Positions 12,153 through 27,557 of a stretch of DNA of 29,340 nucleotides are shown one piece after another; the first letter of the stretch is position 1, and each line of letters begins with the position of its first letter. The notes beneath the pieces are model-generated. The model searched no databases. It saw only the letters and a list, made by a program, of their open reading frames with translations, and was not told where the DNA came from. A program made the translations under genes and the position numbers. Source of the DNA: Actinomycetota bacterium (lineage in GTDB: Bacteria; Actinomycetota; Thermoleophilia; Gaiellales; JAICJC01); assembly GCA_046732235.1 (NCBI GenBank), contig JBKPMQ010000323.1, positions 1 to 29,340 of the forward strand, read 5' to 3'.

Positions 12153-12188
12153 GACTGGCCATGAGCCTGGCGCATCGGCCGATTCGAG
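12153..12188 (+). promoter_or_regulatory. Conserved upstream motif, copy 1
   Basis: GACTGG CCATGA GCCTGGC GCAT CGGCCGAT TCGAG; 30 nt before ATG 12219. Confidence 0.75.
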
Positions 12189-12218
12189 AGGGGCCCGCAC
12201 GACGGAGAATCACTCGGG

Positions 12219-12566
12219 ATGATCGGCGACCTCACGGCGGACCCCCCGGGTGCCCGGGGAGAGACTTTCCTGTTCGCGCGGTTTCGTGCGCCGAACTATC
12301 CGAGAATGAAGCGGGCGTTCGACGACCTTCAGCAGCTCCTCCAGCGCCATGGCGCCCGAGGCCACCGCATCTTCCGGCTGACCGGCGATCCGCAGGACTA
12401 CATCCTGATTGTCGAGTTCGCGTCCGGCGGCGGCGCCCGTGGTTTTACAAAAGAGTCTCAACTGGCACGCGCGATTGATGCGGCCGGAGTTGAGGGTGGC
12501 GCCCACCACATTAAGTATGTCGAAGAGCTTCGTGATCAGCTCGAGGCTGTGAACTACCCCCAATAA
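12219..12566 (+). CDS. Small alpha+beta barrel (ABM/cyclase-like) hypothetical protein
   Basis: NYPRMKRAFD...GARGHRIFRLTGDPQDYILIVEF resembles small ferredoxin-like barrel proteins; GGAG upstream. Confidence 0.6.
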   Translation: MIGDLTADPPGARGETFLFARFRAPNYPRMKRAFDDLQQLLQRHGARGHRIFRLTGDPQDYILIVEFASGGGARGFTKESQLARAIDAAGVEGGAHHIKYVEELRDQLEAVNYPQ

Positions 12567-12834
12567 CGAAAGCCTCCACCGGCTGCGACACATACGGGCA
12601 ACGTCAGCTCTTTCGTGAACTCGGTCCCGAGCGGATAGCGGCTGTGGACCGAGTTGCGGCTCCGAGCCGAGCTGAAAGCCTCCCTCCTCGCTCCAGCTAC
12701 GCGCCGACCCCAGCACCTGCGCCTTATGGCGGACCAAGAAGCGGCGGAGCTCGTCTGCGCCCCGAAACGATGACGGGGAACGGAAGCAAGAGCGGCACGT
12801 CCGTCGCTGTCAGAGGCGTGTTGGCCGCCACACT

Positions 12835-13355
12835 CGTCGTGATCAGCTGGATCCGTCCTGCCCCGCACCCCGACAAGGTTGGCAGCGGTCAGGACCAGAC
12901 CAGCCCGATCGCGAGCAAAGTCGCTACCCAGTAGGTGGAAGCGTACGACCAGAAGACCGCGAGATAGCCGGCGAACGCGATCGCGATCGCTGCGTTCCCC
13001 ACCCAGGCATTGAGCCAGTAGCTCCACGCGGTCCAGAAGCCGATGAAATCGCCGAACGCCTTGCGCACATACACGTAAGGGCCGCCGGTCTTCGGATAGG
13101 CGCTACCCAGGCGCGCGGACACGAGCGCAAGGCAGCATCGCGCCGATCCAGGTGAAGATCCGGCCGACGATCGAGACGGGGCCGGCCGTCGCAGCCAGTG
13201 ATGCGGGCACCAGAAAGATTCCTGACCAAATCATGTTGCCGATCACGAGCGCCGTGGCCGTCCAAAACGCCCAGGTCCCGCCGTAACGCGCCCGGCGCCG
13301 GCGCAACCGGTTCGCCGGCAACGCCGGCGATAGGTCGGGTTTGAGCGGTTTCCAC
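12835..13355 (-). pseudogene. APC-family amino acid permease remnant
   Basis: Homology is split over at least 4 frame switches: LRRDLG / FWTATALVIGNMIWSGIFLVPASLA / LALVSARLGSAYPKTGGPYVY...WSYW / LTAANLVGVR / AGRIQLITT, then lost. SD AAGGAGG before GTG 13355. Confidence 0.85.
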
Positions 13356-13433
13356 GTTCGTCCCTCCTTGTGTCGTTGCTCACGAGCCCACCGGCCCTGG
13401 TGCGGATACGAGGACCGCCGGAGCGGCTCCGCC

Positions 13434-13470
13434 CTCGAATCTGCCGACGTGCCACCGCAAATCGCCAGTC
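13434..13470 (-). promoter_or_regulatory. Conserved upstream motif, copy 2
   Basis: GACTGG CGATTTG CGGTGGC ACGT CGGCAGAT TCGAG; 78 nt before GTG 13355. Confidence 0.75.
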
Positions 13471-13572
13471 GAGCCCGCCGGCGCGAGTGGCGTGAGTCCG
13501 CGCGGTGGAACGAGGTCACCGCCACCAGTTCGCTGCCAAGCGAGCCGGTGCCGGCGACCTCGATCCGTCAGT

Positions 13573-14415
13573 TCATCGTGTCGCGTTGACGGCGGAAAGG
13601 ATCACCTGGGTGACCTTGGCAGGACGGGTAATCGGGGTCAGGTGGCCTGCCCGAACACGGGAGATGTGAGCTCCGGCCCGGGTGTACATCATGCGCTGCA
13701 GTGCGGGCGGGATCACACGATCCAGCGTTCCGAGGAGAGCCCAGGACGGAATCGACTTCCACGCCGGCCGCCCTGAGCGCTCAGTGAACTCGGCCGCTGC
13801 CGCAGGACGCTGGATGGCGAACAGGATCTTCGCTTCCTTTTTTCGGACTCCATTGGCGAAACACTTTCTGAACCCGGGGTAGGGCGGATTGGCTTGCCAC
13901 CGCAGGTAGAGATCCACTCCACCATCGAACGGCACGGGATTCAACCCGCTCTGGACCACGCAGGATCCCGAGCCTCCGACGAGTGCGCCGCCGGTCTCGC
14001 CCTTCGCGGGCATGAAGCTGTCGATGTAGACAAGCGCCTTGACGCTCGGGTTACCTGTCGCGGCATTGGTGGTGACAAACCCACCGTAGGAGTGGGCGAC
14101 GAGCACGATGGGGCCGGGGATGGTCCTGAGGTAACTCGCCAGATACGCGGAGTCCTCGGCCGGTCCGCGCAGCGTGTTTGGCGGAGCTGCCACCGTGAAG
14201 CCCCTATCCTGCAGACGGTGGATGACGCTCGTCCACGATGATGCATCGGCCCAGTCACCGTGCACGAGTACGATCGTTGGTCGCTCCCTTCCCCCAGCCT
14301 GGGCGTTCGCCGCCGCAGTCCCACGGGACTGCAGGGCGAACAATGCCGCAAGCGCGAGAGCCGACGCAATCAGAAGAGCCCGGAGCCGGAAGCTGGCCGG
14401 TTGGTGGAAGAACAT
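13573..14415 (-). CDS. Alpha/beta hydrolase with predicted signal peptide
   Basis: PTIVLVHG, AHSYGG nucleophile elbow, DRVIP, AGHL; hydrophobic N-terminus ending AAANAQA; SD AGGAGG before ATG 14415. Confidence 0.9.
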   Translation of the reverse strand: MFFHQPASFRLRALLIASALALAALFALQSRGTAAANAQAGGRERPTIVLVHGDWADASSWTSVIHRLQDRGFTVAAPPNTLRGPAEDSAYLASYLRTIPGPIVLVAHSYGGFVTTNAATGNPSVKALVYIDSFMPAKGETGGALVGGSGSCVVQSGLNPVPFDGGVDLYLRWQANPPYPGFRKCFANGVRKKEAKILFAIQRPAAAAEFTERSGRPAWKSIPSWALLGTLDRVIPPALQRMMYTRAGAHISRVRAGHLTPITRPAKVTQVILSAVNATR

Positions 14416-14474
14416 CAAGAGACCTCCTCGTCTCGAGCGATTGACGCTCTGAGCGTCGCGCGAAAGGCCACCGG

Positions 14475-14510
14475 CTCGAATCCGCCGGCACGCCAGTCGG
14501 CTGACCAGTC
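14475..14510 (-). promoter_or_regulatory. Conserved upstream motif, copy 3
   Basis: GACTGG TCAGCC GACTGGC GTGC CGGCGGAT TCGAG; 59 nt before ATG 14415. Confidence 0.8.
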
Positions 14511-14548
14511 GCTGGCTCATCGTGTGCGGTGTGCGACTCCCGCTGTAT

Positions 14549-17500
14549 TTAGTAAGCGCGACGAGCCGAATTGCTTCGAAACGAGACCACCGCACCGCGG
14601 CCGTCTTCCAGGGCAACTGGAGCGGACGAATACGCCACCGGCACAAGCGACCCATCTTGGCGGACGAACCAGTCGTCGTCGACCCGAACCGTCTCACCGT
14701 TCAGACGCGGGCGCAGCAGTGGGCACTCGGCCGCCGGAAACGGCGTTCCGTCGGGACGGACATAGTGAATCGTGTCATGACTCGGCCGGCCGACGAGTTG
14801 GCGCTCGTCCTCGTATCCGAGGATCCTGAGCGCGGCGCGATTCAGGAAGCAAATCCGCCCTCGCGGATCGACAACATACAAGGCGTCCGCGCTCGCCGCG
14901 ACTGCCGATTGCAACGTGGCCGCGTTCACGGGGTACGAGATATCCGGAAGTGGGGGCGGGCCGTCCTTTGGTGTACTCGCCGCTCCGCCCCGTCCGCGAG
15001 CGAGATCGCCTATGGGCTCAGCCCTCATCGGCATTTCGATCGAAATCCGCGTTCCGTGGCCGGGCGGGCTGTCGAGCGAGAACCTTCCGTCGAGTGCCTC
15101 GATCCGGTCGATCAACCCGATGAGCCCAGATCCGGCGCTTACCTCGGCACCTCCCTTGCCGTTATCTTTGATGACGGCGCGAATCCGGCCCTCACAGGTG
15201 GTGATTGCGACCGTGACCTCGGATGCCCGTGCGTGTTTCGTGGCGTTGGCAAGCGCTTCGGAGATCACGTAGTACACGGCGTTCTCCGTCGACTCCGATG
15301 GACGCTCTCTGATGCTGACGTCCAACTTGACCGAGATCGGGGATTTCCGCGCCAAGGCGCGGAGGGACGGCCCCAGCCCCGCCCGCGAAAGTAGCGCTGG
15401 ATGAAGACCATGCGACAGCTCGCGAACGTCCTCCACTACGGCTTCCAGGTCGTGCCTGATTCGCTCGAGGGCGGATCGCGTGTCTCGCTGATCCGCGGGA
15501 ATGCCGGTCCGCACAGTTTCCACGTCGAGGCCGATCGCCACGAGCCGCTGCTGCGTTCCGTCATGAAGGTTGCGCTCGATCCGGCGCCTCGCCTCGTCGC
15601 CGGCGGCGACGATTCGTGCCCGTGAGGCGATCAGGTCCGCGCGGGTCGTGGCATTAGAGACGGCCGTCGCGACGAGCTGAGTAAAGCGGGCGAGGCGCTT
15701 CTCCGTATCAGTGGGGATCGGTCTGCCGGTCTCCGCGGCGGCCATCAGGAACCCCCAGACGCTGCCGTCCACCACGATCGGTACCCCCAGCGTCGAGGCC
15801 GTCAGGTCGCCCCGGAACGCCTCGCCGAATCGGTCGGTCGTTGTCGGGTCGTCGTCCGTCCGCGAGGGGCGACCGGTGGCGAGGACCAATCCTGCGATCC
15901 GGTGCACGTCGACCGGCCAACGACTGCCGACCGTGAATTTGGTCTCGCCGAAGATACCGAGAATCGTGAAGGTGCCGTCAGCCTCGTAGCGGCTCACGCC
16001 CACCACAGGAATGTTGATAATGCCAGCGACCTCTCGCGCGACGGCGGAAAACAGCGCGTCCGGACTTGCGCCTTGCGCGACGAGGGTCGCGACGCGGGAG
16101 AGGGCCGCCTGTTCGTGTGCGAGCGCACGGGCCCGCGCCTCTGATGAGGCGAGTTCCGCGCGGCCCTCGGCGTTCGCGATCGCAGTCGCGACCAGCTCAC
16201 AGAAGCGCTCGACACGCCTCTCGGTGTTCGGGGGCAAGGTCGCGCGCGAGCTTGAGGCGGTCACTAGGCCCCAGAGCTTGCCCTCGACGAGGATGGGCGC
16301 CGCAACGGTGGAGAGGAAGCCCATGGCCAGGACCCGCTGCGCCAGCTGGCCGTATGCGCTGGCGTCGATCCTGTCGTCGCGCGGAAAATCCACCCTGGCG
16401 GTGTGCCCGGTACGGTAGACCTGACGTGAAATAAATGACTCGTCGAGGTTCTGGCGCGTCCCCACCGGAATGTGCCCCAGACTTTCGCTGGCACCGACGA
16501 CTGTCACCTCTGACCCGTCGGGTTCGAAGCGCCCAATTCCAGCACCGTCGACTGCGAATAGCCGCGCAACCTCTTCGCTCACTGCGGAGAACAGCTCGTC
16601 AGGCTCGGTTCCGGCGGCCACGAGTGTCGCGACTCGACGAAGGGCCGCGTGTTCGTTCGCAAGCGCACGGGCGCGCGCCTCTGATGAGGCGAGCTCGGCG
16701 CGGCTCTCGGCGTTCGCGATCGCAGTCGCGATCACCTCGCCGAAGCTCTCGATGCGATTCTCGGTGTCCCGCGGCAGACTTGAGTGCGAGCTGGAGGCGG
16801 CGACATAGCCCCAGAGTTCGCCCTCGACGACAATTGGTGCTCCGACCGTCGAGGTGAACCCCAGCGCAACAAACTGCCGTGGCGCGTCGGCGATAGCGCG
16901 GGCGGTTTCGACGTTGTCGTTCCGGGCTGGGCGACCGGTTCGGTAGATCTCACCTGCGACGATTCCCTCGTCGAGTCCAGAGCGTGTCCCGACCGGAAGA
17001 CCGGGCAAGTCTTCGCTCACACCAACGAGCACTGCGCCGGAGCCGTCCGAGTCATAGCGCCCAACCGCAGCCCAGTCAGCTTCAAACAACTGCGCGACCT
17101 CGGCGCTAACGGCCGAGAACAGCTCAGTGGGTTCCGCTCCGACCGCTACGAGCGTTGCCACCCGCCGAAGCGCCGCCTGCTCGTCGGCCAGGCGGCGGAG
17201 ATTGGCGCGTGTCTCTGCGTTGATGAGCGCCGTCGTCACCAGTTTTGTAAAGCCGACGAGTCGGTCGCTCGTATCCGCGGGGAGGGGCGGACCTTGCTGC
17301 GCAGCGCCAACGGCAAGTACGCCCCAGACGGAGTCGGCGACGAGCACCGGAACGCCGACAACCGAACCGACGCCAAGCGAGCGGGCGGCTTCGCCCAATG
17401 GGCCGTGGACGCCGCTGTGGTCGTCGGTTCGTGCCGGGCGGCGCGACCTGACCACCGCCCTTACGATTCCGGGATCATCGTCGGGGAGGACCCATGTGCC

Positions 17501-18619
17501 GCCCACATAACCGCTACAGGCCGCACAGCCGGCGACAAGGGTTGCGTTCTTCTCGGGTTCGTAGCGCACGAGGCCGGCGAACGGCACCTCGAAAAGCTCC
17601 GAGGCTAACGTTGTAATTGCGGTGAATATTTCGCTTGTCGAAGCGCCGGAGGCGATCAGCGTAGCTGCGGTGCCGAGTGCTCGTTGCTCGGCAGCGACTT
17701 GTGCCAGTTCTCGTCGCGCCTCGGTGTTCGCGATGGCCGTTGCGAGGAGTTCCGTGAAGTCCACCACGCGCGATTCGTTGCCCCTGGGGATCTCGGCCGT
17801 CATCGTGCTCGCAAAGATCGACCCCCACAAACGGCCTTCAACAAAGATCGGTGCGGCCACGGTCGAGCGGGGAAGGGCGCCGAGCGCGCGAGCGTAGTCG
17901 ATCAGTGGGCCGGAGAACGCCTCGTGGTCGTCGATCAGGATGGGGCGCCGGATTTGGCGCACTGCCGCCGTGACATCGTCGCCCTGCAAATCAATCCGCG
18001 TACCGACGGGAACCTGCGCTTCTTCGTCGCTCCAGTAGGCGACGATGGTCATGAAGTTACCTGCTTCGAACCGTCCCATCGCACACCGATCGGCCGGGAG
18101 GATCCGAGCTATCTCTCTCGCGACGGACGCGAAGACCACATCCGGTGGCGCCTCGTCTGCCACACGCGTGGCAACTCGCCGCAGCGCTCCCTGCTCTTCC
18201 GCGAGCCTGCGAAGATCAGCTTCCGCCCGCTTCGCATCTGTCAGGTCACGCACGAAGCCGCAGACCAGCACCGGCTCGCCGCTGACCTGAATGAGGGCGA
18301 GCTCGACCGGAAATTCGGTGCCGTCTGCTCGCATCCCAGTCAGCTGCAGCCGGCGCCCCAACAGCCGATTCTCGCGGGTCTCGACGAAGCGAGCGAACGC
18401 TTTGCCGTGGAGCTCGCGCAGCGACGGCGGCACAATCAATTCGGCCAGCGTCCGACCAAGGGCCTCTTCACGCGAGTACCCGAAGGTGCGCTCGGCCGCC
18501 GGGTTGAACTCGATCACGCGGCCCGATGCATCAGCCAGGATGACGCAATCGAGCGCCGCGTCCAGGTAGGCGCGCAAAGCTGCGCTCCGCGCGAGGCCGT
18601 GGGAGGCTCCGAGCGTCAC
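14549..18619 (-). CDS. PAS-5xGAF-HisKA_3-HATPase-PAS sensor histidine kinase
   Basis: N-terminal PAS (EFNPAAERTFGY, RADGTEFPVEL); five repeats starting E(Q/H)xALxRVAT-like; RRRIERNLHDG; EALANATKHA; DNGKGGA; C-terminal PAS (FLNRAALRILGY, RQDGSLVPVAY). Confidence 0.92.
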   Translation of the reverse strand: MTLGASHGLARSAALRAYLDAALDCVILADASGRVIEFNPAAERTFGYSREEALGRTLAELIVPPSLRELHGKAFARFVETRENRLLGRRLQLTGMRADGTEFPVELALIQVSGEPVLVCGFVRDLTDAKRAEADLRRLAEEQGALRRVATRVADEAPPDVVFASVAREIARILPADRCAMGRFEAGNFMTIVAYWSDEEAQVPVGTRIDLQGDDVTAAVRQIRRPILIDDHEAFSGPLIDYARALGALPRSTVAAPIFVEGRLWGSIFASTMTAEIPRGNESRVVDFTELLATAIANTEARRELAQVAAEQRALGTAATLIASGASTSEIFTAITTLASELFEVPFAGLVRYEPEKNATLVAGCAACSGYVGGTWVLPDDDPGIVRAVVRSRRPARTDDHSGVHGPLGEAARSLGVGSVVGVPVLVADSVWGVLAVGAAQQGPPLPADTSDRLVGFTKLVTTALINAETRANLRRLADEQAALRRVATLVAVGAEPTELFSAVSAEVAQLFEADWAAVGRYDSDGSGAVLVGVSEDLPGLPVGTRSGLDEGIVAGEIYRTGRPARNDNVETARAIADAPRQFVALGFTSTVGAPIVVEGELWGYVAASSSHSSLPRDTENRIESFGEVIATAIANAESRAELASSEARARALANEHAALRRVATLVAAGTEPDELFSAVSEEVARLFAVDGAGIGRFEPDGSEVTVVGASESLGHIPVGTRQNLDESFISRQVYRTGHTARVDFPRDDRIDASAYGQLAQRVLAMGFLSTVAAPILVEGKLWGLVTASSSRATLPPNTERRVERFCELVATAIANAEGRAELASSEARARALAHEQAALSRVATLVAQGASPDALFSAVAREVAGIINIPVVGVSRYEADGTFTILGIFGETKFTVGSRWPVDVHRIAGLVLATGRPSRTDDDPTTTDRFGEAFRGDLTASTLGVPIVVDGSVWGFLMAAAETGRPIPTDTEKRLARFTQLVATAVSNATTRADLIASRARIVAAGDEARRRIERNLHDGTQQRLVAIGLDVETVRTGIPADQRDTRSALERIRHDLEAVVEDVRELSHGLHPALLSRAGLGPSLRALARKSPISVKLDVSIRERPSESTENAVYYVISEALANATKHARASEVTVAITTCEGRIRAVIKDNGKGGAEVSAGSGLIGLIDRIEALDGRFSLDSPPGHGTRISIEMPMRAEPIGDLARGRGGAASTPKDGPPPLPDISYPVNAATLQSAVAASADALYVVDPRGRICFLNRAALRILGYEDERQLVGRPSHDTIHYVRPDGTPFPAAECPLLRPRLNGETVRVDDDWFVRQDGSLVPVAYSSAPVALEDGRGAVVSFRSNSARRAY
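16081..16740 (-). repeat. Intragenic direct repeat 16081-16200 vs 16621-16740 (offset 540 nt = 180 codons)
   Basis: Hand alignment: 17 mismatches in 120 nt; 5 in the 70-nt core 16121-16190 vs 16661-16730. Both copies encode ATAIANAExRAELASSEARARALA. Confidence 0.9.
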
Positions 18620-18701: not shown

Positions 18702-19355
18702 GTGGCCACTGGACGCGTGATCTTGGCCGACGACGATGTCCTCCTGCGCGAAGGAATCGCGAGCCTCCTGGGCGGCGCGGGCTACGAGATCGTGGGGCAG
18801 GCCGGAGATGCACACAGACTGACGAACCTGGTACGGGAGCAAAGCCCGGATCTTGTTGTGATCGATATCCGGATGCCCCCGACACACACGTATGAAGGGC
18901 TACAGGCAGCCAGCGCGATTCGGGCCGAATCGCCGCAGATCGGAATTCTCCTGCTCTCCGCTCATGTGGAGGTCGACACGGCGATGGACCTGCTCCAGGG
19001 CGGTGAACGGATCGGATACCTGCTGAAGAGCCGCGTCATGGATGCCGCCGACTTCATCGACGCCGTCGAGCGGATCGCCCGCGGCGGTTCGGTGGTCGAT
19101 GCGGCTCTCGTTCAAGAACTGGTCGCCGCCGGTCGACGAAACGATCCGCTTGGAGATCTGACGCCAAGAGAACGGGAGGTGCTCGCTCTTATGGCGGAAG
19201 GGCGCTCGAACAACGGCATCGCGCAGAGGCTGTTTATCACAGAAGGAGCTGTCGAGAAGCACGTTCGCAGCATCCTCATGAAGCTTCAACTACCCCCGAC
19301 CGGGGATGACCACCGCCGCGTCCTCGCAGTGATCGCCTTCCTCGAGGCACGTTAG
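18702..19355 (+). CDS. NarL/FixJ-family response regulator
   Basis: ILADDD, VVIDIRMP (phospho-Asp), GYLLK, LTPREREVLALMAEGRSN...VEKHV LuxR HTH; divergent from the kinase. Confidence 0.95.
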   Translation: MATGRVILADDDVLLREGIASLLGGAGYEIVGQAGDAHRLTNLVREQSPDLVVIDIRMPPTHTYEGLQAASAIRAESPQIGILLLSAHVEVDTAMDLLQGGERIGYLLKSRVMDAADFIDAVERIARGGSVVDAALVQELVAAGRRNDPLGDLTPREREVLALMAEGRSNNGIAQRLFITEGAVEKHVRSILMKLQLPPTGDDHRRVLAVIAFLEAR

Positions 19356-19705
19356 CGGAGCAACTCAGCGATCGCGTTCCCGTCGAGCCTTGCCTTTGAC
19401 AGGAATCCGACCGCCGGACTCGCGGCGATCAGTTCCGTCAGCTCATCCTCGGAGTGGGTCGAGATCAAGATGATCTGCGTCCTACGCGCATGTGCAGCCA
19501 GTCGTCGAGTTAACTCAACGCCATCTTCGTTGCCAAGCTGCACATCGACGAGAGCCACATCCGGCTCTAACACGTCGGTGAGTCGCAACGCCTCCGCACC
19601 CGAGGAGGCGCGTCCTACGACGTCGAGCCCCTGCGCCGAGAGGAGCCGGGACGCCGAATCAAGAAATGCTTCGTTGTCATCAACGATCAAGCAGCGCAAG
19701 CCCAC
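19352..19705 (-). CDS. Stand-alone receiver domain protein
   Basis: CLIVDD, ALVDVQLG, LIST and FLSK receiver motifs; no output domain; start uncertain (19705 or 19738). Confidence 0.88.
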   Translation of the reverse strand: MGLRCLIVDDNEAFLDSASRLLSAQGLDVVGRASSGAEALRLTDVLEPDVALVDVQLGNEDGVELTRRLAAHARRTQIILISTHSEDELTELIAASPAVGFLSKARLDGNAIAELLR

Positions 19706-19771
19706 GGCCCTAGCGTGGCTGAGAACGGCGAGCGACACAATGAAGCTAGCCCTACCCCTTCGGTGGGGGTT

Positions 19772-19823: not shown

Positions 19824-20786
19824 TTACGACGCGAGAGCAGTGCGCAGGATCGAGATGGCCTGGGCCACTGCAGCGCGAGTGGCGTGCGTCTCGCTGAGCG
19901 GGTTCAGCATCATGAAATCGTGGGTGATGCCGTCGTAGCGGACGGTCGTCACGGCAACCCCGGCCGCCCGGAGGCGCGCTGCGTAGGCCTCGCCTTCGTC
20001 GCGCAGAACGTCAGCCTCGTCGACGATCACGAATGCCGGCGGCAGATCGGCGAGCTGGTCGTCGCTTGCGCGCAGCGGTGAGGCATAGGGCTCAGAGCGC
20101 CGCTGGACGTCCGGCAGGTAGGCATCCCAGAACCACGCCATCCCTTTCGCGAACAGGAAGTAGCCCTCGGCGAATTGCTCGTACGAGCCGGTGTCCATGG
20201 CGGCGTCGGTCACGGGGTACCACATTGACTGCTGCACGAAGCGGACGTCACCGCGGTCGTGCGCCATCAGCGCCAGAGCCGCCGTCATATTGCCGCCGAC
20301 GGACTCGCCGGCGACAGCCATCCGCTCGGGGTCGAGTCCGTTCGACGCGCCCTCGCGCATGATCCACTGTGCCGTGGCATAGCCCTGCTCGATCGCGACG
20401 GGGTAGTGGGCCTCTGGTGACCGGTCGTACTCAACGAAGACGACCGCGGCGCCCGTCCCGACGGCGAGTTCACGGACGAGCCGGTCGTGCGTGCCCGCGT
20501 TTCCGAGTACCCAGCCGCCGCCGTGCATGTACAGGATCACCGGCAGCGTCCCGTCCGCGTCTGGCGGTCGGACGATGCGGACGCGGACGTCCCCGACTTC
20601 CGCCGGGACGGTAGTCCAGCGATCGTCGACCCGCAGCTTTTTGATCGGCTTGGCCTGGACATCATCGAGCACCTTGCGGGCCTCGTCCGGGCTGAGCTCG
20701 AAGATGAACGGCGGCGTCGACGTGGCGTCGACGAATTCCTGAGAGGCCTGCTCGAGTACAACCCCGGTTCCGGTCGTGATAGCCAT
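19824..20786 (-). CDS. HSL-family esterase/lipase (Abhydrolase_3)
   Basis: HGGGW oxyanion hole, GESVG nucleophile, EADVLRDEG, THDF; SD upstream. Confidence 0.93.
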   Translation of the reverse strand: MAITTGTGVVLEQASQEFVDATSTPPFIFELSPDEARKVLDDVQAKPIKKLRVDDRWTTVPAEVGDVRVRIVRPPDADGTLPVILYMHGGGWVLGNAGTHDRLVRELAVGTGAAVVFVEYDRSPEAHYPVAIEQGYATAQWIMREGASNGLDPERMAVAGESVGGNMTAALALMAHDRGDVRFVQQSMWYPVTDAAMDTGSYEQFAEGYFLFAKGMAWFWDAYLPDVQRRSEPYASPLRASDDQLADLPPAFVIVDEADVLRDEGEAYAARLRAAGVAVTTVRYDGITHDFMMLNPLSETHATRAAVAQAISILRTALAS

Positions 20787-21534: not shown

Positions 21535-21562
21535 GAGCACCTTCTGAAGGTTCGTAATCCGG

Positions 21563-22568: not shown

Positions 22569-22603
22569 GACTCGCCCGCCTGCAGGCCATCGGGTCGCCA
22601 GTT
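22569..22603 (-). promoter_or_regulatory. Degenerate motif copy upstream of copy 4
   Basis: AACTGG CGACCC GATGGC CTGC AGGCGGGC GAGTC; first two-thirds resembles copy 4 with a 1-nt deletion. Confidence 0.4.
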
Positions 22604-22810: not shown

Positions 22811-23965
22811 ATGAGCATCATGCGAGCGAGCCACGAAGCATCGACGGAGCTCCGCCTCGACTACGAGGACATCGTCTCCGGGCAGTTGGTCATCGTCATC
22901 CACGGGGTCCCGACTGACGACCGTGCGAAGGCGTCGAAAGGCAACGCTGGTTCTAGGTCGACACCGTCTCCGCTCGTTGATGAGGCGGAGGCGATTATCC
23001 AAGCGACTGGGCACGCACCCGCCCTGTTTACTCCGTTGCTGCTCGCCGCTTGGAGAGGCCAAGAGGCTTTGGCACTGGAACTGGCTGCCGCGACGATCGA
23101 AGAGGCGAGCGCCGAGCACACGGGATGGACAATTGCTCTAACCGAATACGCGAAGGCAGTGCTGTACAACGGCCTCGGCCACTACCACGATGCGGTCGTC
23201 GCCGCGCGGCGCGCATGTGCGTACGAAGACGTCGGGCTCTGCAGTTGGGCGCGCCTCGAACTGATCGAGGCCGGCGCGCGAGATGACGCGCGCGCCGCCG
23301 CGGCCGGCGCGGTGCGCTCCCTCGGAGAACGAACACGCGAAGGCAGCGACTGGGTGCTCGGCGCTTGGTGTCGGTCGGCAGCGCTTCTGAGCAATACGGA
23401 TGCGGCCGAGACACTGTTCCGTGAGGCGATCGAGCGATTCGACCGAGGCGGAGTCGCGGTTCATCTGCCCAGAGCGCAGCTCGTATATGGCGAGTGGCTT
23501 CGCCGTCAGAACCGGCGTGTAGCAGCGCGTGAGCCGCTTCGAGCGGCCCACGATGCGCTCAGAGGTATCGGGGCCGACGCGTTTGCGGAGCGGGCGCGAC
23601 GGGAGCTCCTCGCCACAGGAGAGACGGCTCGCCGGCGCACCGACGACACTCGAGACGTTCTTACCCCCCAAGAGGCGCAAATCGCCAGGCTTGCGCGAAA
23701 TGGTCTGACGAACCCTGAGATCGGCGTACAACTTTTTATCAGTGCCCGGACTGTTCAGTACCACTTGCGCAAGGTCTTCCGGAAACTGGACATCCGCTCC
23801 CGGAACCAGCTCGGGCGAGTGGATCTAAGCCGTCTCAGTCCGGGCGAGCTCGGCTGTCCCACTAGCGAAGGGACTGGCGCGGCGGCGGATGCAAGGCACG
23901 TCTCGCCGGACGATTCTCGCACCAACAGCAACGAACCTGATCCGACCTTGGAGGACGGGTTGTGA
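22811..23965 (+). CDS. LuxR-family HTH regulator, homologous to the C-terminal part of large AAA-LuxR proteins
   Basis: AVLYNGLG, RAQLVYGEWLRR, AFAERARRELLATGE, LTPQEAQIARLARNGLTNPEIGVQLFISARTVQYHLRKVFRKL; SD GGGAGG; no Walker A. Confidence 0.9.
   Translation: MSIMRASHEASTELRLDYEDIVSGQLVIVIHGVPTDDRAKASKGNAGSRSTPSPLVDEAEAIIQATGHAPALFTPLLLAAWRGQEALALELAAATIEEASAEHTGWTIALTEYAKAVLYNGLGHYHDAVVAARRACAYEDVGLCSWARLELIEAGARDDARAAAAGAVRSLGERTREGSDWVLGAWCRSAALLSNTDAAETLFREAIERFDRGGVAVHLPRAQLVYGEWLRRQNRRVAAREPLRAAHDALRGIGADAFAERARRELLATGETARRRTDDTRDVLTPQEAQIARLARNGLTNPEIGVQLFISARTVQYHLRKVFRKLDIRSRNQLGRVDLSRLSPGELGCPTSEGTGAAADARHVSPDDSRTNSNEPDPTLEDGL
23860..23895 (+). promoter_or_regulatory. Conserved upstream motif, copy 5 (inside the LuxR 3' tail)
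   Basis: CACTAG CGAAGG GACTGGC GCGG CGGCGGAT GCAAG; 66 nt before GTG 23962. Confidence 0.7.
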
Positions 23966-24273
23966 TCAATCCCCCGACTTGGAGCACGCTCATGCTCGTC
24001 GGGACGGACATCTTCGTCTCGCTTCGGTGGCCGGGAAGAACCGCGCTCGTGCTGACCTCGCTCGTCTCCTTCGTCACGCTGGTCGCGCTCGCGTGGTGGA
24101 TCGGCTGGTCACGACGCAGGCGTAGTCCCGCCGTCTGCCGGCACTCGCGGCGCGTGAGCGCTGTGAGACGACGCGAAACGGAGAGTCTATTCCAAGGCTA
24201 TACGCGCACTCGACCACGGCCCATCCGGCGGACGGCATTCGATGGGAACCCGCGTTCTGGAAAGGAGAATCGC
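23962..24273 (+). CDS. Possible small membrane protein, in frame with the next CDS (no stop between them)
   Basis: SD GGAGG then GTG overlapping the LuxR stop; hydrophobic LVLTSLVSFVTLVALAWWIGW followed by RRRR. Confidence 0.4.
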
Positions 24274-24561
24274 ATGGGCACCGTCACGACTCACAACCGC
24301 ACAGGCGTGATCGCCAGCGAATTAGGCGATGGCATCCGCGAACTTTGCTCACGCTCCTGCAATGGAATTGACATCGCCCTTATTTGGCATCGATGCAACA
24401 ACACAGCGATGGTCGTCGTTGTAAACCACCGAAACGGCGAGAGGTTTCTCTTGGAGGTTGACGAGAGCGAAAACGCGCTCGATATGTACCACCATCCCTA
24501 CGCATACGCCGCATATCGACAAATTCCGCGGGAATCGCAAGCGCTTCCCCGGGAACTGTAG
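24274..24561 (+). CDS. Hypothetical protein, 95 aa
   Basis: Strong SD AAAGGAG. RELxxR..GIDIALIW...GERFLLEV...ALDMYHHPYAYAA resembles a small actinobacterial family I recall but cannot name. Confidence 0.75.
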   Translation: MGTVTTHNRTGVIASELGDGIRELCSRSCNGIDIALIWHRCNNTAMVVVVNHRNGERFLLEVDESENALDMYHHPYAYAAYRQIPRESQALPREL

Positions 24562-24793: not shown

Positions 24794-24830
24794 GACCGGC
24801 GACTCCCGCTGGCGTCCCGGCGGATGCGAC
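24794..24830 (+). promoter_or_regulatory. Conserved upstream motif, copy 6
   Basis: GACCGG CGACTCC CGCTGGC GTCC CGGCGGAT GCGAC; 78 nt before ATG 24909. Confidence 0.8.
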
Positions 24831-24908
24831 AGCGATCCAGCCAACGCGATGCTGCTCCGGCTTCCAGCCCAGGTGCCACGCACATTTCCCGACAGACAGG
24901 AGGACGAG

Positions 24909-25811
24909 ATGAGCACCACCGTTCCACGAACGCCGATGGATCTTCACGCGACCGAAGAAAAATCCGGCATCGCGTCGATTTCCGAGCGGGAGACCCGGGA
25001 GATCGAGGGGGCTAATGCCTCCGGCTATACCCCGGTCGTCTTCATCCACGGCCTCTGGCTGCTTCCGAGCAGCTGGGCGAACTGGGCGCACTTTTTCAAG
25101 CGAGCCGGCTACGCGCCACTGATGCCTGACTGGCCCGACGACCCGGAAACGGTTGAAGACGCGCGGACGAACCCGGACATTCTCGCTAAGAAGACCGTCA
25201 AGCAGATCGCCGATCACACCACGCAGATCGTTCAAGCCTTGGACAAGAAGCCGGCGGTGATCGGGCATTCCACCGGGGGCTTGCTCGCGCAAATGCTCGC
25301 GGGCCGGGGGCTCTCGGCCGCCACGGTGGCGATCGATCCGGGAGTCTTCCGCGGCGTCCTGCCTCTGCCGGGCTCCGTGCTCAAGGGGATCGGTCTGTTG
25401 CTGGTCAATCCGCTCACACGCGGCCGCGCAATCACCCTCTCATTCGACCAGTTCAAGTACGGCTGGGCGAACGCGCTGGACGAAAAAGAGGCGAAGGAAC
25501 TCTACGACGCGTTCCACGTTGCGGGGTCCGGGATCTCTCTTGCGCAGATGGGTAACGCGAATCTGAACCCTTGGACGGAAGCGAAGGTAAACACGAAGAA
25601 TCCGAATCGCGGCCCCCTGCTGATCATCGACGGCGAAAAGGATCACACCGTGCCCTGGGCGATTGCGCACGCCGCCTACAAGCGGCAGCGGCGGAACCCT
25701 GGCGTGACGGAGATCGTAAAGATCCCAAACCGCGGGCATTCCCTGACGATCGACCACGGCTGGCGTGAAGTCGCCGACACGGCGCTAACTTTCGTCAAGA
25801 GGTTCACCTAG
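24909..25811 (+). CDS. Alpha/beta hydrolase (non-heme haloperoxidase/esterase-like)
   Basis: VVFIHGLWLLPSSW, GHSTGG, GEKDHTVP, RGHSLTIDHGW; SD AGGAGG. Confidence 0.92.
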   Translation: MSTTVPRTPMDLHATEEKSGIASISERETREIEGANASGYTPVVFIHGLWLLPSSWANWAHFFKRAGYAPLMPDWPDDPETVEDARTNPDILAKKTVKQIADHTTQIVQALDKKPAVIGHSTGGLLAQMLAGRGLSAATVAIDPGVFRGVLPLPGSVLKGIGLLLVNPLTRGRAITLSFDQFKYGWANALDEKEAKELYDAFHVAGSGISLAQMGNANLNPWTEAKVNTKNPNRGPLLIIDGEKDHTVPWAIAHAAYKRQRRNPGVTEIVKIPNRGHSLTIDHGWREVADTALTFVKRFT

Positions 25812-25841
25812 CCGGGCGGTTCACCTCCGGTACTTGCCGTT

Positions 25842-26063: not shown

Positions 26064-26393
26064 TCACCCGGTGCAGGCTGACGGCGAGGGCGCGCTTTCG
26101 GAAGCGCCCTTCCTCCAGGTGATGCAGGTCACGACAGACTGCTGCGCTCCGCGCCGACACAGCGACACCGGTTTGCCCTCAGGATCTGCGACTTCAAGCG
26201 ACGCACTCCCCCCGAGGCATGTCCCGGCATCCCGCGGCACCATTACGCCGGCAGCATGTAGCGCCGTTGTTCGACCCAAATCCTCGACATGGATATACAG
26301 CGCGAACCGCGCTGCGTCACCCCGCTTGATTCCAATGAACTCCTTGGCGCGTCGAACGGATAGGACGCCGGATGCTTCCTTACGCTTTGTCAC
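26064..26393 (-). pseudogene. VOC/glyoxalase-family remnant
   Basis: ALYIHVEDL and VADPEGKPVSL are in frame. DMPRGECVA (cf. VOC DMPWGER) appears only in another frame at about 26197-26226. Confidence 0.6.
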
Positions 26394-26415
26394 GAAGCGG
26401 GTCGCCGTTCAGCAT

Positions 26416-26452
26416 GACGCGTGATTCACGCTAGCGCATTGGCGGATGCGAG
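26416..26452 (+). promoter_or_regulatory. Conserved motif, copy 7 (no convincing downstream CDS)
   Basis: GACGCG TGATTCA CGCTAGC GCAT TGGCGGAT GCGAG. Confidence 0.65.
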
Positions 26453-26564
26453 TCCGTCCGCGGGCAGAGAATAGTTAGGCGATCAATGCGCGGCTTCGCC
26501 GAAATTCAAGGATAATGCAAAGCTTCACATCGGTCGACACGCCTATCGCGGTTGAAGCCTCCGC

Positions 26565-26927
26565 TCACCGAGCTGGCGAACCGTTGGATGTCTCGTCGCC
26601 GGTGCAGTGCGCACCCTGGCTTACAGTCGCCATTCGTCTCACACGTGCGCACCCATCATTGGTGTAACTCATAACCTCGTACCACGAGTAGAACTCTTCC
26701 CAGCGGAAGGCCGCCTCCCGATGCGCCGGCAGCCGCGACGCCCGCCTCGCATGCTCGGCGGACTCCCACAAACATACGGATGCTCTGGCGCCGACATCCG
26801 AGCCAGGAACGTAACAATAGAGGCCCCCAGAGGCTCGCGCCTCCTCGTACGCCGCCTCGTCGAGGCGGCGAAGCTCGTCCCCGTCCACGTCATCACGAAC
26901 TCGACAGCTGAAAACGACTACGTACAC
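26565..26927 (-). CDS. ABM-like dimeric alpha+beta barrel hypothetical protein
   Basis: YVVVFSCR...EEARASGGLYCY...CLWESAEHARRASRLPAH pattern; SD GGGGAG before GTG. Confidence 0.65.
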   Translation of the reverse strand: MYVVVFSCRVRDDVDGDELRRLDEAAYEEARASGGLYCYVPGSDVGARASVCLWESAEHARRASRLPAHREAAFRWEEFYSWYEVMSYTNDGCARVRRMATVSQGAHCTGDETSNGSPAR

Positions 26928-27019
26928 TTTCGCGCTTTCTCCCCGTCGAACCTATTCGAAAAGTTGAGGCCGGTGATATCGGCTGGGTTTCGTATAAAGG
27001 ATCACCCAGCTAAGCGGCA

Positions 27020-27056
27020 CTCGAATCCGCCGAACCGCCGGCCGAATGGCCCATTC
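27020..27056 (-). promoter_or_regulatory. Conserved upstream motif, copy 8
   Basis: GAATGG GCCATTC GGCCGGC GGTT CGGCGGAT TCGAG; 92 nt before GTG 26927. Confidence 0.7.
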
Positions 27057-27201
27057 GTGTGCGTCGCGACAGAGCGAGCGGGGGCTGAGCTGACGGAGCA
27101 GGCTGGGAGAGTCGCCGGTCGGTCGCCCTGCGCTCCATTTCGTATGCCTGATCCGTCGGCGACCGCCTCTCACTGCCGGTCGGCTACGTGGTGCCCGCCG
27201 C

Positions 27202-27237
27202 AACTGGCGATCGCGCTGGCGTTCCGGCTGACGCGAG
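27202..27237 (+). promoter_or_regulatory. Conserved upstream motif, copy 9
   Basis: AACTGG CGATCG CGCTGGC GTTC CGGCTGAC GCGAG; 84 nt before ATG 27322. Confidence 0.7.
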
Positions 27238-27321
27238 CGAAGCTGAGCTAGATAAAGCTCGCGACTCGAACCGCCGCGGTTGCCGCGGGCGGACGGTGAT
27301 TAGCGAAGGAGGTCCGTTGCG

Positions 27322-27498
27322 ATGATGACGAAGATCGAGGTGGTCCGGGTACTTCGGAATGCAGGGTTGCTGGAGCTCGCGGATGAGGCCGCGCGATCGC
27401 TACCTGACGAGCTCGACGTCGAACAGGTAGTGGAGTTTGGCGCTCGCCATGGCATAACGACCGACGACCTCGCCGACCGCATGGGAGGCAGTCCCTAG
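27322..27498 (+). CDS. 58-aa small protein (absent from the ORF track)
   Basis: SD GAAGGAGGT. MMTKIEVVRVLRNAGLLELADEAARSLPDELDVEQVVEFGARHGITTDDLADRMGGSP; resembles actinobacterial small proteins ending GGSP (recollection). Confidence 0.8.
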   Translation: MMTKIEVVRVLRNAGLLELADEAARSLPDELDVEQVVEFGARHGITTDDLADRMGGSP

Positions 27499-27521
27499 GG
27501 CGGTAGCGGTTCCATATCTGC

Positions 27522-27557
27522 GACTGGCGAGGCCCCTAGCGCCTCGGCGGATGCGAA
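27522..27557 (+). promoter_or_regulatory. Conserved upstream motif, copy 10
   Basis: GACTGG CGAGGC CCCTAGC GCCT CGGCGGAT GCGAA; 64 nt before the putative start at 27622. Confidence 0.78.

What the first reader, a model, noticed from the sequence alone, without database searches (positions are those of the whole stretch)
12153..27557. A 36-37 bp three-part motif, in 10 clear copies, marks a regulon confined to the accessory region
Seen in sequence, read on the strand of the downstream gene: 12153+ GACTGG CCATGA GCCTGGC GCAT CGGCCGAT TCGAG; 13470- GACTGG CGATTTG CGGTGGC ACGT CGGCAGAT TCGAG; 14510- GACTGG TCAGCC GACTGGC GTGC CGGCGGAT TCGAG; 22434- GACTGG CGACTC GGCTGGC CTGT CGGCGGAT TCGAC; 23860+ CACTAG CGAAGG GACTGGC GCGG CGGCGGAT GCAAG; 24794+ GACCGG CGACTCC CGCTGGC GTCC CGGCGGAT GCGAC; 26416+ GACGCG TGATTCA CGCTAGC GCAT TGGCGGAT GCGAG; 27056- GAATGG GCCATTC GGCCGGC GGTT CGGCGGAT TCGAG; 27202+ AACTGG CGATCG CGCTGGC GTTC CGGCTGAC GCGAG; 27522+ GACTGG CGAGGC CCCTAGC GCCT CGGCGGAT GCGAA. 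Nine copies end 30-92 nt (eight of them 59-92 nt) before a likely start codon, in sense orientation. The spacers vary freely while the blocks and the N4 spacing are kept, which points to a DNA element rather than a duplicated segment. Inference, two models: (a) GACTGG...RCTGG direct repeats 12-13 nt apart bind an activator next to a promoter element; (b) GACTGG and CGGCGGAT, 17-18 nt apart, are the -35/-10 elements of an alternative sigma factor. I do not recognise the motif as a described operator, but cannot exclude that it is known.
Basis: partly seen in the sequence, partly recalled or inferred. Interest (0 to 1): 0.88.

Follow-up and report, generated by a model that had tools for sequence, protein, structure and literature searches.

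The report
Shared promoter of a LuxR regulon
The ten repeats are the upstream halves of ten copies of one activator-dependent promoter, most likely switched on by the MalT-like LuxR regulator encoded among them. The same promoter and regulator pair recurs across the soil actinobacterial class Thermoleophilia, so this is a sound but fairly ordinary local regulon in a little-studied group.

Summary
All ten copies are at the stated coordinates, against 0.36 expected by chance. A matrix trained only on other genomes scores them 27-55 bits; the next best site in the 3.4-Mb assembly scores 15.5.

The motif is not a -35/-10 pair. A GAnnnT hexamer lies 16-17 nt after KCGAG. In other genomes an ATG or GTG often follows it by 6 nt, which marks a leaderless start. 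KCGAG therefore sits at -35, and the three conserved blocks (about -65 to -34) form an upstream operator.

The same promoter occurs in more than 100 loci, almost all Thermoleophilia MAGs. It precedes the same genes: an NAD-binding protein, alpha/beta hydrolases and a small two-helix membrane protein.

It travels with a LuxR/LAL regulator, not with the NarL-type two-component system. All motif-linked regulators share the recognition helix TVQYHL. Paralogues in motif-free relatives read TVEWHL.

Elsewhere the regulator is usually a full-length LAL with an ATPase. The window has a short form without the ATPase, and that form always sits next to a GAF/PAS kinase, a response regulator and a receiver.

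The 16-kb island lies after tRNA-Val and is missing there in two congeners. The closest known systems are MalT-type promoters. No binding or transcript data exist. An earlier scan note (e1-929979) appears to describe the same module on other DNA.

The parts
12153..12210 (+). Promoter copy 1. Motif at 12153-12188, -10-like GAGAAT at 12205-12210, ATG at 12219 only 8 nt later (near-leaderless). It drives a 115-aa gene of unknown function (12219-12566).
   Evidence: 43.4 bits with the external matrix
13411..13470 (-). Promoter copy 2. Motif at 13470-13434; the -10 position holds a degenerate GGTCCT. It faces a frameshifted remnant of an APC-type amino-acid permease (about 13355-12554).
   Evidence: 37.0 bits
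14452..14510 (-). Promoter copy 3, the best match. Motif at 14510-14475, -10 GACGCT at 14457-14452. It drives an alpha/beta hydrolase (Abhydrolase_6, 14415-13573).
   Evidence: 55.0 bits
22377..22434 (-). Promoter copy 4. Motif at 22434-22399, -10 GATCAT at 22382-22377. It drives an operon: NAD_binding_10 protein (22315-21563), Abhydrolase_6 (21597-20818) and a hormone-sensitive-lipase-type esterase (20786-19824).
   Evidence: 53.8 bits
23860..23917 (+). Promoter copy 5, inside the 3' end of the LuxR gene. Motif at 23860-23895, -10 GATTCT at 23912-23917. It drives a 199-aa ORF (23962-24561) whose N-terminus resembles the small two-helix membrane protein that follows the regulator in other genomes.
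24794..24853 (+). Promoter copy 6. Motif at 24794-24830, -10 GATGCT at 24848-24853. It drives an alpha/beta hydrolase (24909-25811).
26416..26472 (+). Promoter copy 7. Motif at 26416-26452; GAGAAT at the atypical offset of 14 nt (26467-26472). There is no convincing gene downstream, only a 50-codon ORF (26515-26667), and it runs towards the 3' end of the gene of copy 8.
   Evidence: 27.1 bits
26998..27056 (-). Promoter copy 8. Motif at 27056-27020, -10 GATCCT at 27003-26998. It drives a 120-aa gene (26927-26565) with no family match.
27202..27259 (+). Promoter copy 9, the weakest block 3 (CGGCTGAC). Motif at 27202-27237, AAAGCT at the -10 position (27254-27259). It drives a 58-aa ORF (27322-27498).
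27522..27579 (+). Promoter copy 10. Motif at 27522-27557, -10 GACGCT at 27574-27579. It drives a two-helix small membrane protein read in the frame of 27619-27975. That ORF has no ATG, GTG or TTG start; a Shine-Dalgarno sequence GAGAGGA is followed by ATC/ATT codons.
22811..23965 (+). Candidate reader of the motif: a 384-aa LuxR-family regulator with an all-helical TPR-like domain (about residues 54-268), a GerE helix-turn-helix (about 279-334, recognition helix SARTVQYHLRKVF) and no ATPase domain.
14549..18619 (-). PAS, five GAF, HisKA_3, HATPase and PAS sensor histidine kinase (1356 aa). It has no motif in front. It is always found next to the short LuxR form.
18702..19355 (+). NarL-family response regulator (receiver plus GerE). 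It has no motif in front.
19352..19738 (-). Single-domain receiver protein, the third member of the conserved kinase, regulator and receiver trio.
11812..11884 (+). tRNA-Val(TAC), the left edge of the inserted block of about 16.4 kb (about 11.9-28.3 kb).

Best explanation
Each copy is the upstream two thirds of a roughly 60-bp promoter that depends on an activator. Counting the transcription start as the 7th base after the hexamer, the layout is as follows. GACTRG lies at about -65/-59, nnCTGGC at -52/-46, and YGGCSGAT at -41/-34. KCGAG occupies the -35 position (-33/-29). After 16-17 nt comes a -10 hexamer GAnnnT (consensus GAYCCT) at -12/-7. Read as 9-mers, the blocks are three direct repeats of CTGGCG-n-n-T (CTRGCSAnY, CTGGCGYnT, YYGGCSGAT), centred near -59, -46 and -38. 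In one flavour the first repeat is part of the palindrome GACTGGCCAGTC. The inference is that the GerE-type helix-turn-helix of the LuxR/LAL-family regulator encoded in the island (22811-23965) binds these repeats as a multimer. The proximal site abuts the poor -35, and the regulator recruits RNA polymerase carrying a sigma-70-type (group 1 or 2) sigma factor. This is how MalT works at mal promoters. The -10 departs from the genome's own TAnnnT at its first base, which fits a promoter that is silent without the activator. The regulon consists of an NAD(P)-binding protein, several alpha/beta hydrolases including a hormone-sensitive-lipase type, a small two-helix membrane protein and small proteins of unknown function. 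The inducing signal is unknown. Shown here in silico: the copies, their fixed geometry, their conservation and their linkage to the regulator. Inferred: binding, activation rather than repression, and the identity of the sigma factor.
For: 1. Geometry. Of 154 non-redundant sites from other genomes, 143 carry a [G/T/C]AnnnT hexamer 16 or 17 nt after KCGAG, and 134 carry GAnnnT at 15-18 nt. The background frequency is 1% per position, and the search pattern ended at KCGA, so this is not ascertainment. Seven window copies have GAnnnT at 16-17 nt; copy 9 has AAAGCT there.
2. Transcription start. 48 of 59 type II sites have ATG or GTG 5-7 nt after the hexamer, against about 14% expected. Nineteen of these open real genes (leaderless) and 29 open 7-28-codon upstream ORFs. 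In the window's own genome TAnnnT is enriched about tenfold at 6-8 nt before start codons (183/146/107 against 10-25), so this -10-to-start geometry is native.
3. Conservation. The module recurs in homologous clusters whose LuxR is only 62-67% identical. It also occurs in 101 loci of GTDB species genomes, nearly all labelled Gaiellaceae, Thermoleophilaceae, Solirubrobacterales or unclassified Thermoleophilia, Actinomycetes or Actinomycetota. It precedes the same gene families there: NAD_binding_10 at 34 sites, the small membrane protein at 33, and hydrolases at 24.
4. Linkage. A LuxR homologue lies within the 8-kb locus in 56 of 101 loci, against 5 for the response regulator and 1 for the kinase. 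In 5 of 5 large genomes the best LuxR hit is 0-3.4 kb from the sites, while the best response-regulator hit is at least 100 kb away or on another contig. A site sits at or just past the 3' end of the regulator gene in most loci.
5. Specificity. All aligned helix-turn-helix domains of motif-linked regulators keep TVQYHL except one distant homologue, L047, with TVEYHM; four truncated rows are uninformative. Eleven LAL paralogues at loci found by protein search in genomes whose motif counts are at background read TVEWHL or TVEYHL.
6. Precedent. The Actinoplanes MalT-like regulator activates 17 promoters of one genomic region through a motif that overlaps -35 and contains GGATGA (PMC7567727). Here GGATKC ends about 32-33 nt before the inferred start.
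Against: There are no experimental data of any kind. No RNA run was listed, so the transcription start is inferred. The protein-DNA fold was not run. The external sites were recruited with a pattern that contains the blocks, so conservation of the blocks is partly by construction. Three direct repeats spaced 12-13 and 8 bp apart are unusual for GerE-type domains, which mostly bind inverted repeats as dimers. The window's regulator lacks the STAND ATPase that drives MalT multimerisation, so how it would assemble is open. A response regulator with a GerE domain is also encoded in the island. A -10 with an invariant G at its first base could instead point to a non-housekeeping sigma factor. Sites from -65 to -30 could in principle serve a repressor.
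Confidence: 0.72

Rival explanations
1. The island's NarL-type response regulator (18702-19355), phosphorylated by the GAF/PAS kinase, is the protein that reads the motif, as DevR/DosR reads Dev boxes.
For: It has a GerE helix-turn-helix. It lies in the island, as does its kinase. The half-site GACT...AGTC of the palindromic flavour recalls the DosR box (my recollection of that box, not tested). All eight informative short-LuxR clusters carry this two-component system.
Against: The motif occurs in many genomes without the system nearby. The response regulator lies within 8 kb in 5 of 101 loci, against 56 for LuxR. In 5 of 5 large genomes its best homologue is at least 100 kb away or on another contig. 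By sequence it is a generic NarL-family member, equally close to NarL, VraR and DevR.
Confidence: 0.08
2. The LuxR-family protein binds the motif but acts as a repressor that occludes the -35 region. The regulon is then induced by release of the protein.
For: The proximal block abuts or overlaps -35, where some repressors act. No expression data exist.
Against: The sites extend upstream to -65 and leave the -10 and the start free. The -35 is non-consensus. The -10 has a conserved non-consensus first base, whereas the genome's own leaderless promoters use TAnnnT. Both features are typical of activator dependence. MalT/LAL relatives are activators (PMC7567727, PMC4381067).
Confidence: 0.1
3. One reading: GACTGG and CGGCGGAT, 17-18 nt apart, are the -35 and -10 elements of an alternative (ECF-type) sigma factor.
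For: The spacing of 17-18 nt and the one-base play between the blocks look like a promoter spacer.
Against: A separate conserved hexamer with invariant A2 and T6 lies 16-17 nt after the motif, followed by start codons at +1. No sigma factor gene lies in the island or travels with the motif. The 22-nt fixed block is far larger than a -10 element. The GG/GC spacing of sigma-54 promoters does not fit (sequence inspection).
Confidence: 0.04
4. The copies are a mobile or recombination-related repeat (MITE-like or REP-like elements, or integron-type sites) with no role in transcription.
For: There are many copies in a horizontally acquired block with decaying genes.
Against: The spacers vary freely while the blocks are kept. 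Every copy is in sense orientation before a gene. The distance to the -10 is fixed while the distance to the start codon varies from 6 to more than 90 nt. The same motif precedes orthologous genes across a bacterial class. There are no flanking repeats and no recombinase, and no Rfam family matches.
Confidence: 0.02

Closest known systems
MalT-dependent promoters of E. coli and Klebsiella (MalT is the prototype LAL/STAND activator of the LuxR family)
   Same: The sites are asymmetric and repeated in direct orientation. The proximal one overlaps or replaces the -35 element, and the regulator's LuxR-type helix-turn-helix recruits RNA polymerase (PMC4381067; MalT box GGGGA(T/G)GAGG overlapping -35 as cited in PMC7567727). 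Block 3 here contains GGATKC, which matches 5 of 6 bases of the MalT core GGA(T/G)GA, at about the same distance from the start. In most other genomes the motif-linked regulator is a full-length AAA_16, TPR-like and GerE protein.
   Different: The repeat unit is CTGGCG-n-n-T, not the MalT box. The spacings are 12-13 and 8 bp. The targets are hydrolases and a redox protein, not maltodextrin genes. The window's regulator has no ATPase domain. By fold its sensor part matches only generic TPR proteins (Foldseek E of at least 0.015).
[quoted passage not shown] SE50/110 (PMC7567727)
   Same: One LuxR/MalT-like activator is encoded inside a genomic region. Seventeen promoters of that region share one motif overlapping -35, whose 3' end lies 34.4 nt from the mapped start. 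The region is patchily distributed among relatives and was judged to be horizontally transferred. Most of its genes are poorly annotated enzymes and membrane proteins.
   Different: The Actinoplanes motif is a palindrome (TCATCC-N5-GGATGA), its starts were mapped, and the regulator was deleted and overexpressed. Here nothing has been tested, and the motif is three-part and mainly direct.
Dev boxes of DevR/DosR (NarL family) at hypoxia promoters of Mycobacterium tuberculosis
   Same: A GAF-domain HisKA_3 kinase and a NarL-type regulator lie next to the targets. Several sites occur per promoter, with the proximal one near -35 (from my own knowledge of that system).
   Different: The motif does not travel with the response regulator, and it is not the 20-bp Dev palindrome.

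Membership tests
MalT/LAL-type activator-dependent promoter | The regulator site is at a fixed distance from the -10 and start, and abuts or overlaps the -35 position | tested here: met
   The hexamer lies 16-17 nt after the motif in 143 of 154 external sites and at 16-17 nt in 8 of the 10 window copies. A start codon follows it by 5-7 nt in 48 of 59 type II sites. The transcription start is inferred, not mapped.
MalT/LAL-type activator-dependent promoter | The cognate regulator has a STAND/AAA ATPase, a TPR/SUPR sensor and a LuxR-type helix-turn-helix | tested here: not met
   The window's regulator has only the TPR-like part and GerE. At least 35 of 56 motif-linked homologues in other genomes do have a Walker A about 600 residues upstream in frame. 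A same-genus paralogue has AAA_16 plus GerE.
MalT/LAL-type activator-dependent promoter | Several asymmetric boxes in direct repeat | tested here: met
   Three CTGGC-type 9-mers lie in one orientation in the position counts of 130 sites. This is sequence inspection only; no binding data exist.
MalT/LAL-type activator-dependent promoter | Box sequence GGGGA(T/G)GAGG, core GGA(T/G)GA | tested here: inconclusive
   Only block 3 resembles it (GGATKC, 5 of 6 bases). Blocks 1 and 2 do not (box as cited in PMC7567727).
MalT/LAL-type activator-dependent promoter | The regulator binds the sites and activates transcription | not testable with these tools
   The protein-DNA fold was not run. No RNA runs were listed.
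   A separate -10 hexamer lies 16-17 nt further downstream, followed by leaderless starts.
   There is no Sigma70_r2 protein in the island or in clusters L009, L011 and L014. One ECF gene 3.5 kb from the cluster in L132 is not conserved.
NarL/DosR-type response-regulator operator | The sites co-occur with the response-regulator and kinase genes across genomes | tested here: not met
   The response regulator is within 8 kb in 5 of 101 loci. In 5 of 5 large genomes it is at least 100 kb away or on another contig.
tRNA-adjacent genomic island | The block is inserted next to a tRNA gene, and the flanks are contiguous in relatives | tested here: met
   In G014 and G017 the homologue of window 28345-28537 follows tRNA-Val by 36-56 nt. 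GC is 65% against 72%.
tRNA-adjacent genomic island | An integrase and flanking att direct repeats | tested here: not met
   No recombinase domain was found in the ORFs scanned. No direct repeat of the tRNA 3' end was found at the right edge.

The most novel reading that the evidence does not exclude
In one lineage of this regulon the STAND ATPase of the LAL activator, its signal-dependent assembly switch, has been lost. A GAF/PAS histidine kinase, a NarL-type regulator and a single-domain receiver have taken its place beside the remaining TPR plus helix-turn-helix protein. A phosphorelay would then feed the same DNA-reading head and the same promoter set, for example through the receiver or the regulator acting on the TPR domain, or on transcription of the LuxR gene. 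That would be a natural swap of the input device on a conserved output module.
Probability: 0.3. Interest if true: 0.6.

Novelty: new variant of a known kind. Interest (0 to 1): 0.45.

Why it matters
To my knowledge almost nothing is known about gene regulation in Thermoleophilia, a class found in soil and known mostly from uncultured genomes. This module gives a complete promoter with a predicted transcription start, a predicted regulator with a two-residue specificity signature (Q316/Y317 against E/W in paralogues), and a defined target set of esterases or lipases, an NAD-binding protein and small membrane proteins. All of these can be tested with simple binding and reporter assays. The pairing of an ATPase-less regulator with a phosphorelay, against the full-length form without one, offers a natural experiment on how STAND-type activators receive signals. 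It is not a new kind of mechanism. Local LuxR/LAL regulons with a box at -35 are known (E. coli MalT, the Actinoplanes MRLGR), so the surprise for a specialist is moderate.

Tried and rejected
1. Protein-DNA fold. Three copies of the LuxR helix-turn-helix with copy 3 DNA were submitted, but the job was not folded and gives no evidence either way.
2. RNA evidence. Only four soil DNA metagenome runs hold the stretch, and no RNA run was listed.
3. Rfam. Only the two tRNAs match, so no RNA family covers the motif or the leaders.
4. Literature. A full-text search for the motif strings found only chance hits. GACTGGCCAGTC appears in a Thermus SbtR (TetR-family) REPSA paper that I judged unrelated. 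'Thermoleophilia + LuxR + promoter' gave one irrelevant review.
5. Covariation. The two motif flavours (CGGCGGAT and TGGCCGAT) do not track any change in the regulator's recognition helix, which is invariant in both.
6. Fold of the regulator. The model is confident (pLDDT 82), but Foldseek against the PDB gives only generic TPR proteins (Rap, LGN, KLC) at E of at least 0.015. No specific link to MalT domain III emerged. A sequence search of the PDB matches only the helix-turn-helix.
7. Sigma-54. The GG and GC dinucleotides are not 10 nt apart (sequence inspection).
8. Island ends. No att-type direct repeats and no integrase were found.
9. SARP-type reading. TCGAG is the classic SARP heptad core, but it occurs only once per site and no BTAD protein is present.

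Full report
**What the window is.** The window is one whole contig (C323) of a 3.4-Mb, 417-contig, 85%-complete metagenome-assembled genome. A flank protein (GH15, 5930-7726) has its named homologues in Gaiellales bacteria, so the host is a member of the Thermoleophilia. GC content is 69-75% up to about 11.9 kb, 61-67% from 12 to 28 kb, and rises again after that. A tRNA-Val gene lies at 11812-11884, at the left edge of the lower-GC block.

**The observation.** All ten copies are present as described.
- The fixed part, CTGGC-N4-CGGCGGAT-KCGAG with up to three mismatches, matches exactly these ten places. Shuffles give 0.36 on average and never more than 3.
- A matrix made from the ten copies scores them 31-40 bits, against 23 for the next best site in the whole assembly.
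- A matrix made only from sites of other genomes scores them 27-55 bits, against 15.5.
- Sixty related genomes, thirty of them in the same genus, hold the pattern only at the rate of a reversed control pattern.

Aligning the ten copies on the motif reveals a further conserved hexamer, GAnnnT, 16-17 nt after KCGAG. Seven copies have GAnnnT there and copy 9 has AAAGCT. Copy 7 has GAGAAT at 14 nt, and copy 2 has a degenerate GGTCCT.

To test this on independent data I used the regulator's homologues and one pattern scan.
- Clusters whose LuxR is only 62-67% identical to the window's carry the motif 3-5 times each, again with GAYCCT 16-17 nt downstream.
- A scan of one genome per prokaryotic species with GACTRG-N8/9-CTRGC-N4-YGGCNGAT-KCGA found 101 loci. 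Nearly all are MAGs labelled Gaiellaceae, Thermoleophilaceae, Solirubrobacterales, Conexibacteraceae or unclassified Thermoleophilia, Actinomycetes or Actinomycetota.
- These loci hold 154 non-redundant sites. The pattern stops at KCGA, so what follows is not ascertained.
- 143 sites have a [G/T/C]AnnnT hexamer at 16 or 17 nt, and 134 have GAnnnT at 15-18 nt. The background is 1% per position. The commonest hexamers are GATCCT, GACCCT, GACGCT and GAGCCT.

**Where transcription starts.** In the flavour I call type II (block 3 = TGGCCGAT), 48 of 59 sites have ATG or GTG 5-7 nt after the hexamer, mostly exactly 6 nt.
- In 19 sites this codon opens the real gene, giving a leaderless mRNA.
- In 29 sites it opens a 7-28-codon ORF that ends at or overlaps the start of the real gene.

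The window's own genome uses the same geometry. TAnnnT is enriched about tenfold at 6-8 nt before candidate start codons, whereas GAnnnT is not. The hexamer is therefore the -10 element and the start lies about 7 nt after it. KCGAG falls at -33 to -29, the -35 position, and the three conserved blocks lie at about -65 to -34. The distance from the hexamer to the start codon ranges from 6 to more than 90 nt, while its distance to the motif is fixed. It therefore belongs to the promoter, not to the ribosome-binding site.

**Anatomy of the operator.** I examined position counts over 130 sites. Some columns are fixed by the search pattern. The following are not: the C before GACTRG, the CSA after it, the SG before CTGGC and the G-Y-n-T after it.

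Read as 9-mers, the blocks are CTRGCSAnY, CTGGCGYnT and YYGGCSGAT. These are three direct repeats of CTGGCG-n-n-T, starting 12-13 and then 8 bp apart.
- Type I, as in the window, reads GACTGG-CGACYC-sGCTGGC-GYnT-CGGCGGAT-KCGAG.
- Type II reads GACTRG-CCAGTCA-GGCTGGC-N4-TGGCCGAT-GCGAG, in which GACTGGCCAGTC is a palindrome.

**Which protein reads it.** The island encodes two GerE-type DNA-binding proteins:
- a NarL-type response regulator (18702-19355), with a PAS/GAF HisKA_3 kinase (14549-18619) and a single receiver (19352-19738);
- a 384-aa LuxR protein (22811-23965).

Comparative data favour the LuxR.
- A LuxR homologue lies inside the 8-kb locus in 56 of 101 loci. The response regulator does so in 5, the receiver in 2 and the kinase in 1.
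- In five large assemblies, one of them a complete chromosome, the exact pattern occurs once or twice per genome. It is always 0-3.4 kb from the genome's best LuxR homologue. The best response-regulator homologue is at least 100 kb away or on another contig.
- In most loci a site sits at or just past the 3' end of the regulator gene and points away from it, as copy 5 does in the window.
- The helix-turn-helix is almost invariant (LTPQEAxIARLAxDGLSNPEIGAQLFISPRTVQYHLRKVF), although the proteins as a whole are 50-65% identical.
- Eleven LAL paralogues were found by protein search at their own loci in related genomes whose motif counts are at background. They read TVEWHL or TVEYHL where the motif-linked proteins read TVQYHL.

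None of this is a binding experiment.

**What kind of regulator.** Pfam sees GerE and a weak TPR match. The AlphaFold model (pLDDT 82) is an all-helical repeat domain followed by the helix-turn-helix. The first 50 residues and the tail are disordered. Foldseek finds only generic TPR proteins.

The nearest homologues in same-genus genomes are the C-terminal 290 residues of 900-1300-aa open frames. One of these is a 910-aa protein with AAA_16 and GerE, which is the LAL/MalT architecture. In the motif-bearing loci of other genomes, at least 35 of 56 regulators also have a Walker A about 600 residues upstream in the same frame. The usual partner of this promoter is therefore a full-length LAL.

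The window's ATPase-less form is a variant, but a common one. The top 120 short homologues are at least 62% identical, except one 666-aa hit at 49%. In all eight short-form contexts that could be judged, the response regulator, the receiver and the GAF/PAS kinase lie directly beside it. These contexts are the window, L009, L011, L014, L070, L132 and the two contigs. No regulator gene there has the motif in front. This is the basis of the more novel reading given separately.

**The regulon.** Downstream genes cluster into a few families:
- NAD_binding_10 protein, often followed by Abhydrolase_6 and a hormone-sensitive-lipase-type esterase (34 sites; window copy 4);
- a two-helix membrane protein of about 85-100 aa (33 sites; window copies 5 and 10);
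- alpha/beta hydrolases (24 sites; window copies 3 and 6);
- an 81-aa leaderless protein (15 sites; not in the window);
- occasional OsmC-like, CBS-domain, DUF4331, peroxidase and ferritin-like genes.

NCBIfam adds only a LipP1-like hormone-sensitive lipase, below its cut-off, for 19824-20786. The physiological role is unknown. The content suggests ester or lipid turnover, or a stress response.

**The island.** The left flank plus tRNA-Val and the right flank are 81-83% identical to same-genus genomes. In G014 and G017 the homologue of window 28345-28537 follows the tRNA by 36-56 nt. About 16.4 kb is therefore inserted here. Other congeners hold 4-18 kb of other DNA at this place, so it is a variable spot. 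No integrase and no att repeat were found. Copy 2 drives a frameshifted permease remnant and has lost its -10. Copy 7 has no clear gene. The block looks acquired and partly decaying.

**Comparison with what is known.** The closest systems are MalT-dependent promoters. MalT multimers bind asymmetric boxes cooperatively and recruit polymerase (PMC4381067), and the box overlaps -35 (as cited in PMC7567727). A close parallel is the Actinoplanes region in which one MalT-like regulator activates 17 promoters through a motif overlapping -35 (PMC7567727).

Block 3 here contains GGATKC at about the same distance from the start as GGATGA in those systems. The differences are the repeat unit and its spacing, the targets, and the missing ATPase in the window's regulator. 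I found no description of this motif.

It was read as the promoter module of a large LAL regulator of soil actinobacteria. That core is the type II palindrome seen here, so the scan has very probably met this module before.

**Verdict.**
- The best explanation is a LuxR/LAL-activated promoter found across the class Thermoleophilia (confidence 0.72).
- It is a new variant of a known kind, of moderate interest.

Noticed in passing
window 12554-13355 (-): Three frames together encode fragments of an APC-type amino-acid permease (GTWAFWTATALVIGNMIWSGIFLVPASLA..., then ...GGPYVYVRKAFGDFIGFWTAWSYWLNAWVGNAAIAIAF...). It is a frameshifted, truncated pseudogene behind motif copy 2, and that copy's -10 position is degenerate.
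   Followed up: partly
window 27619-27975 (+): This ORF encodes a two-helix small membrane protein (IIIRYWYSWTAIVAVFGGALLLAIPYVAF...). It is homologous to the gene that follows the regulator in 33 external sites. It has no ATG, GTG or TTG start; a good Shine-Dalgarno sequence (GAGAGGA) is followed by ATC-ATT-ATC. Standard ORF lists miss it and show a spurious Arg-rich frame instead.
   Followed up: partly
L024, L032, L041, L046, L049, L067, L078, L085 and other type II loci: An ATG exactly 6 nt after the -10 opens a 7-28-codon ORF (often 13-14 codons). It ends at or overlaps the start of the small membrane-protein gene. This looks like a conserved leaderless upstream ORF coupled to the main gene.
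   Followed up: partly
whole genome G000: TAnnnT is enriched about tenfold at 6-8 nt before candidate start codons. Leaderless genes therefore appear to be common in this Gaiellales genome.
   Followed up: partly
window 7731-11696 (-) and 14549-18619 (-): Two giant multi-GAF HisKA_3 kinases lie 3 kb apart. One is in the native high-GC flank (six GAF domains). The other is in the island (PAS, five GAF, kinase core, PAS), with internal 0.5-kb repeats at 16077-17191.
   Followed up: no
window 22569-22603 (-): A degenerate extra copy (AACTGG-CGACCC-GATGGCC-TGCA-GGCGGGCG-AGTCG) lies between copy 4 and the LuxR gene. It scores below every threshold used.
   Followed up: partly
L091 (Actinoplanes sp. 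NPDC051513) 694-728 (-): A good motif copy with GACCGT at the -10 position precedes an alpha/beta hydrolase 73% identical to the window's 13573-14415 gene. This is outside the Thermoleophilia, so the promoter and gene may have been transferred together.
   Followed up: no
downstream of tRNA-Val in G002, G003, G004, G006, G009, G010, G014, G017: The interval between tRNA-Val and the conserved mechanosensitive-channel flank varies from about 4 to 18 kb among congeners. The site is a recurrent insertion spot.
   Followed up: partly
L009 9726-10004, L014 7776-8081, and the contexts: A 54-101-aa ORF overlaps the start of the short LuxR gene by 4 nt. In the window the corresponding stretch may be fused to the regulator as its disordered N-terminus (residues 1-50, low pLDDT but with invariant R15, Y18 and P34).
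   Followed up: no
L047 2782-5780: A motif copy precedes a 540-aa AAA_16 protein, followed by a separate LuxR-like gene (38% identical, helix TVEYHM). This is a split LAL that may be autoregulated.
   Followed up: no
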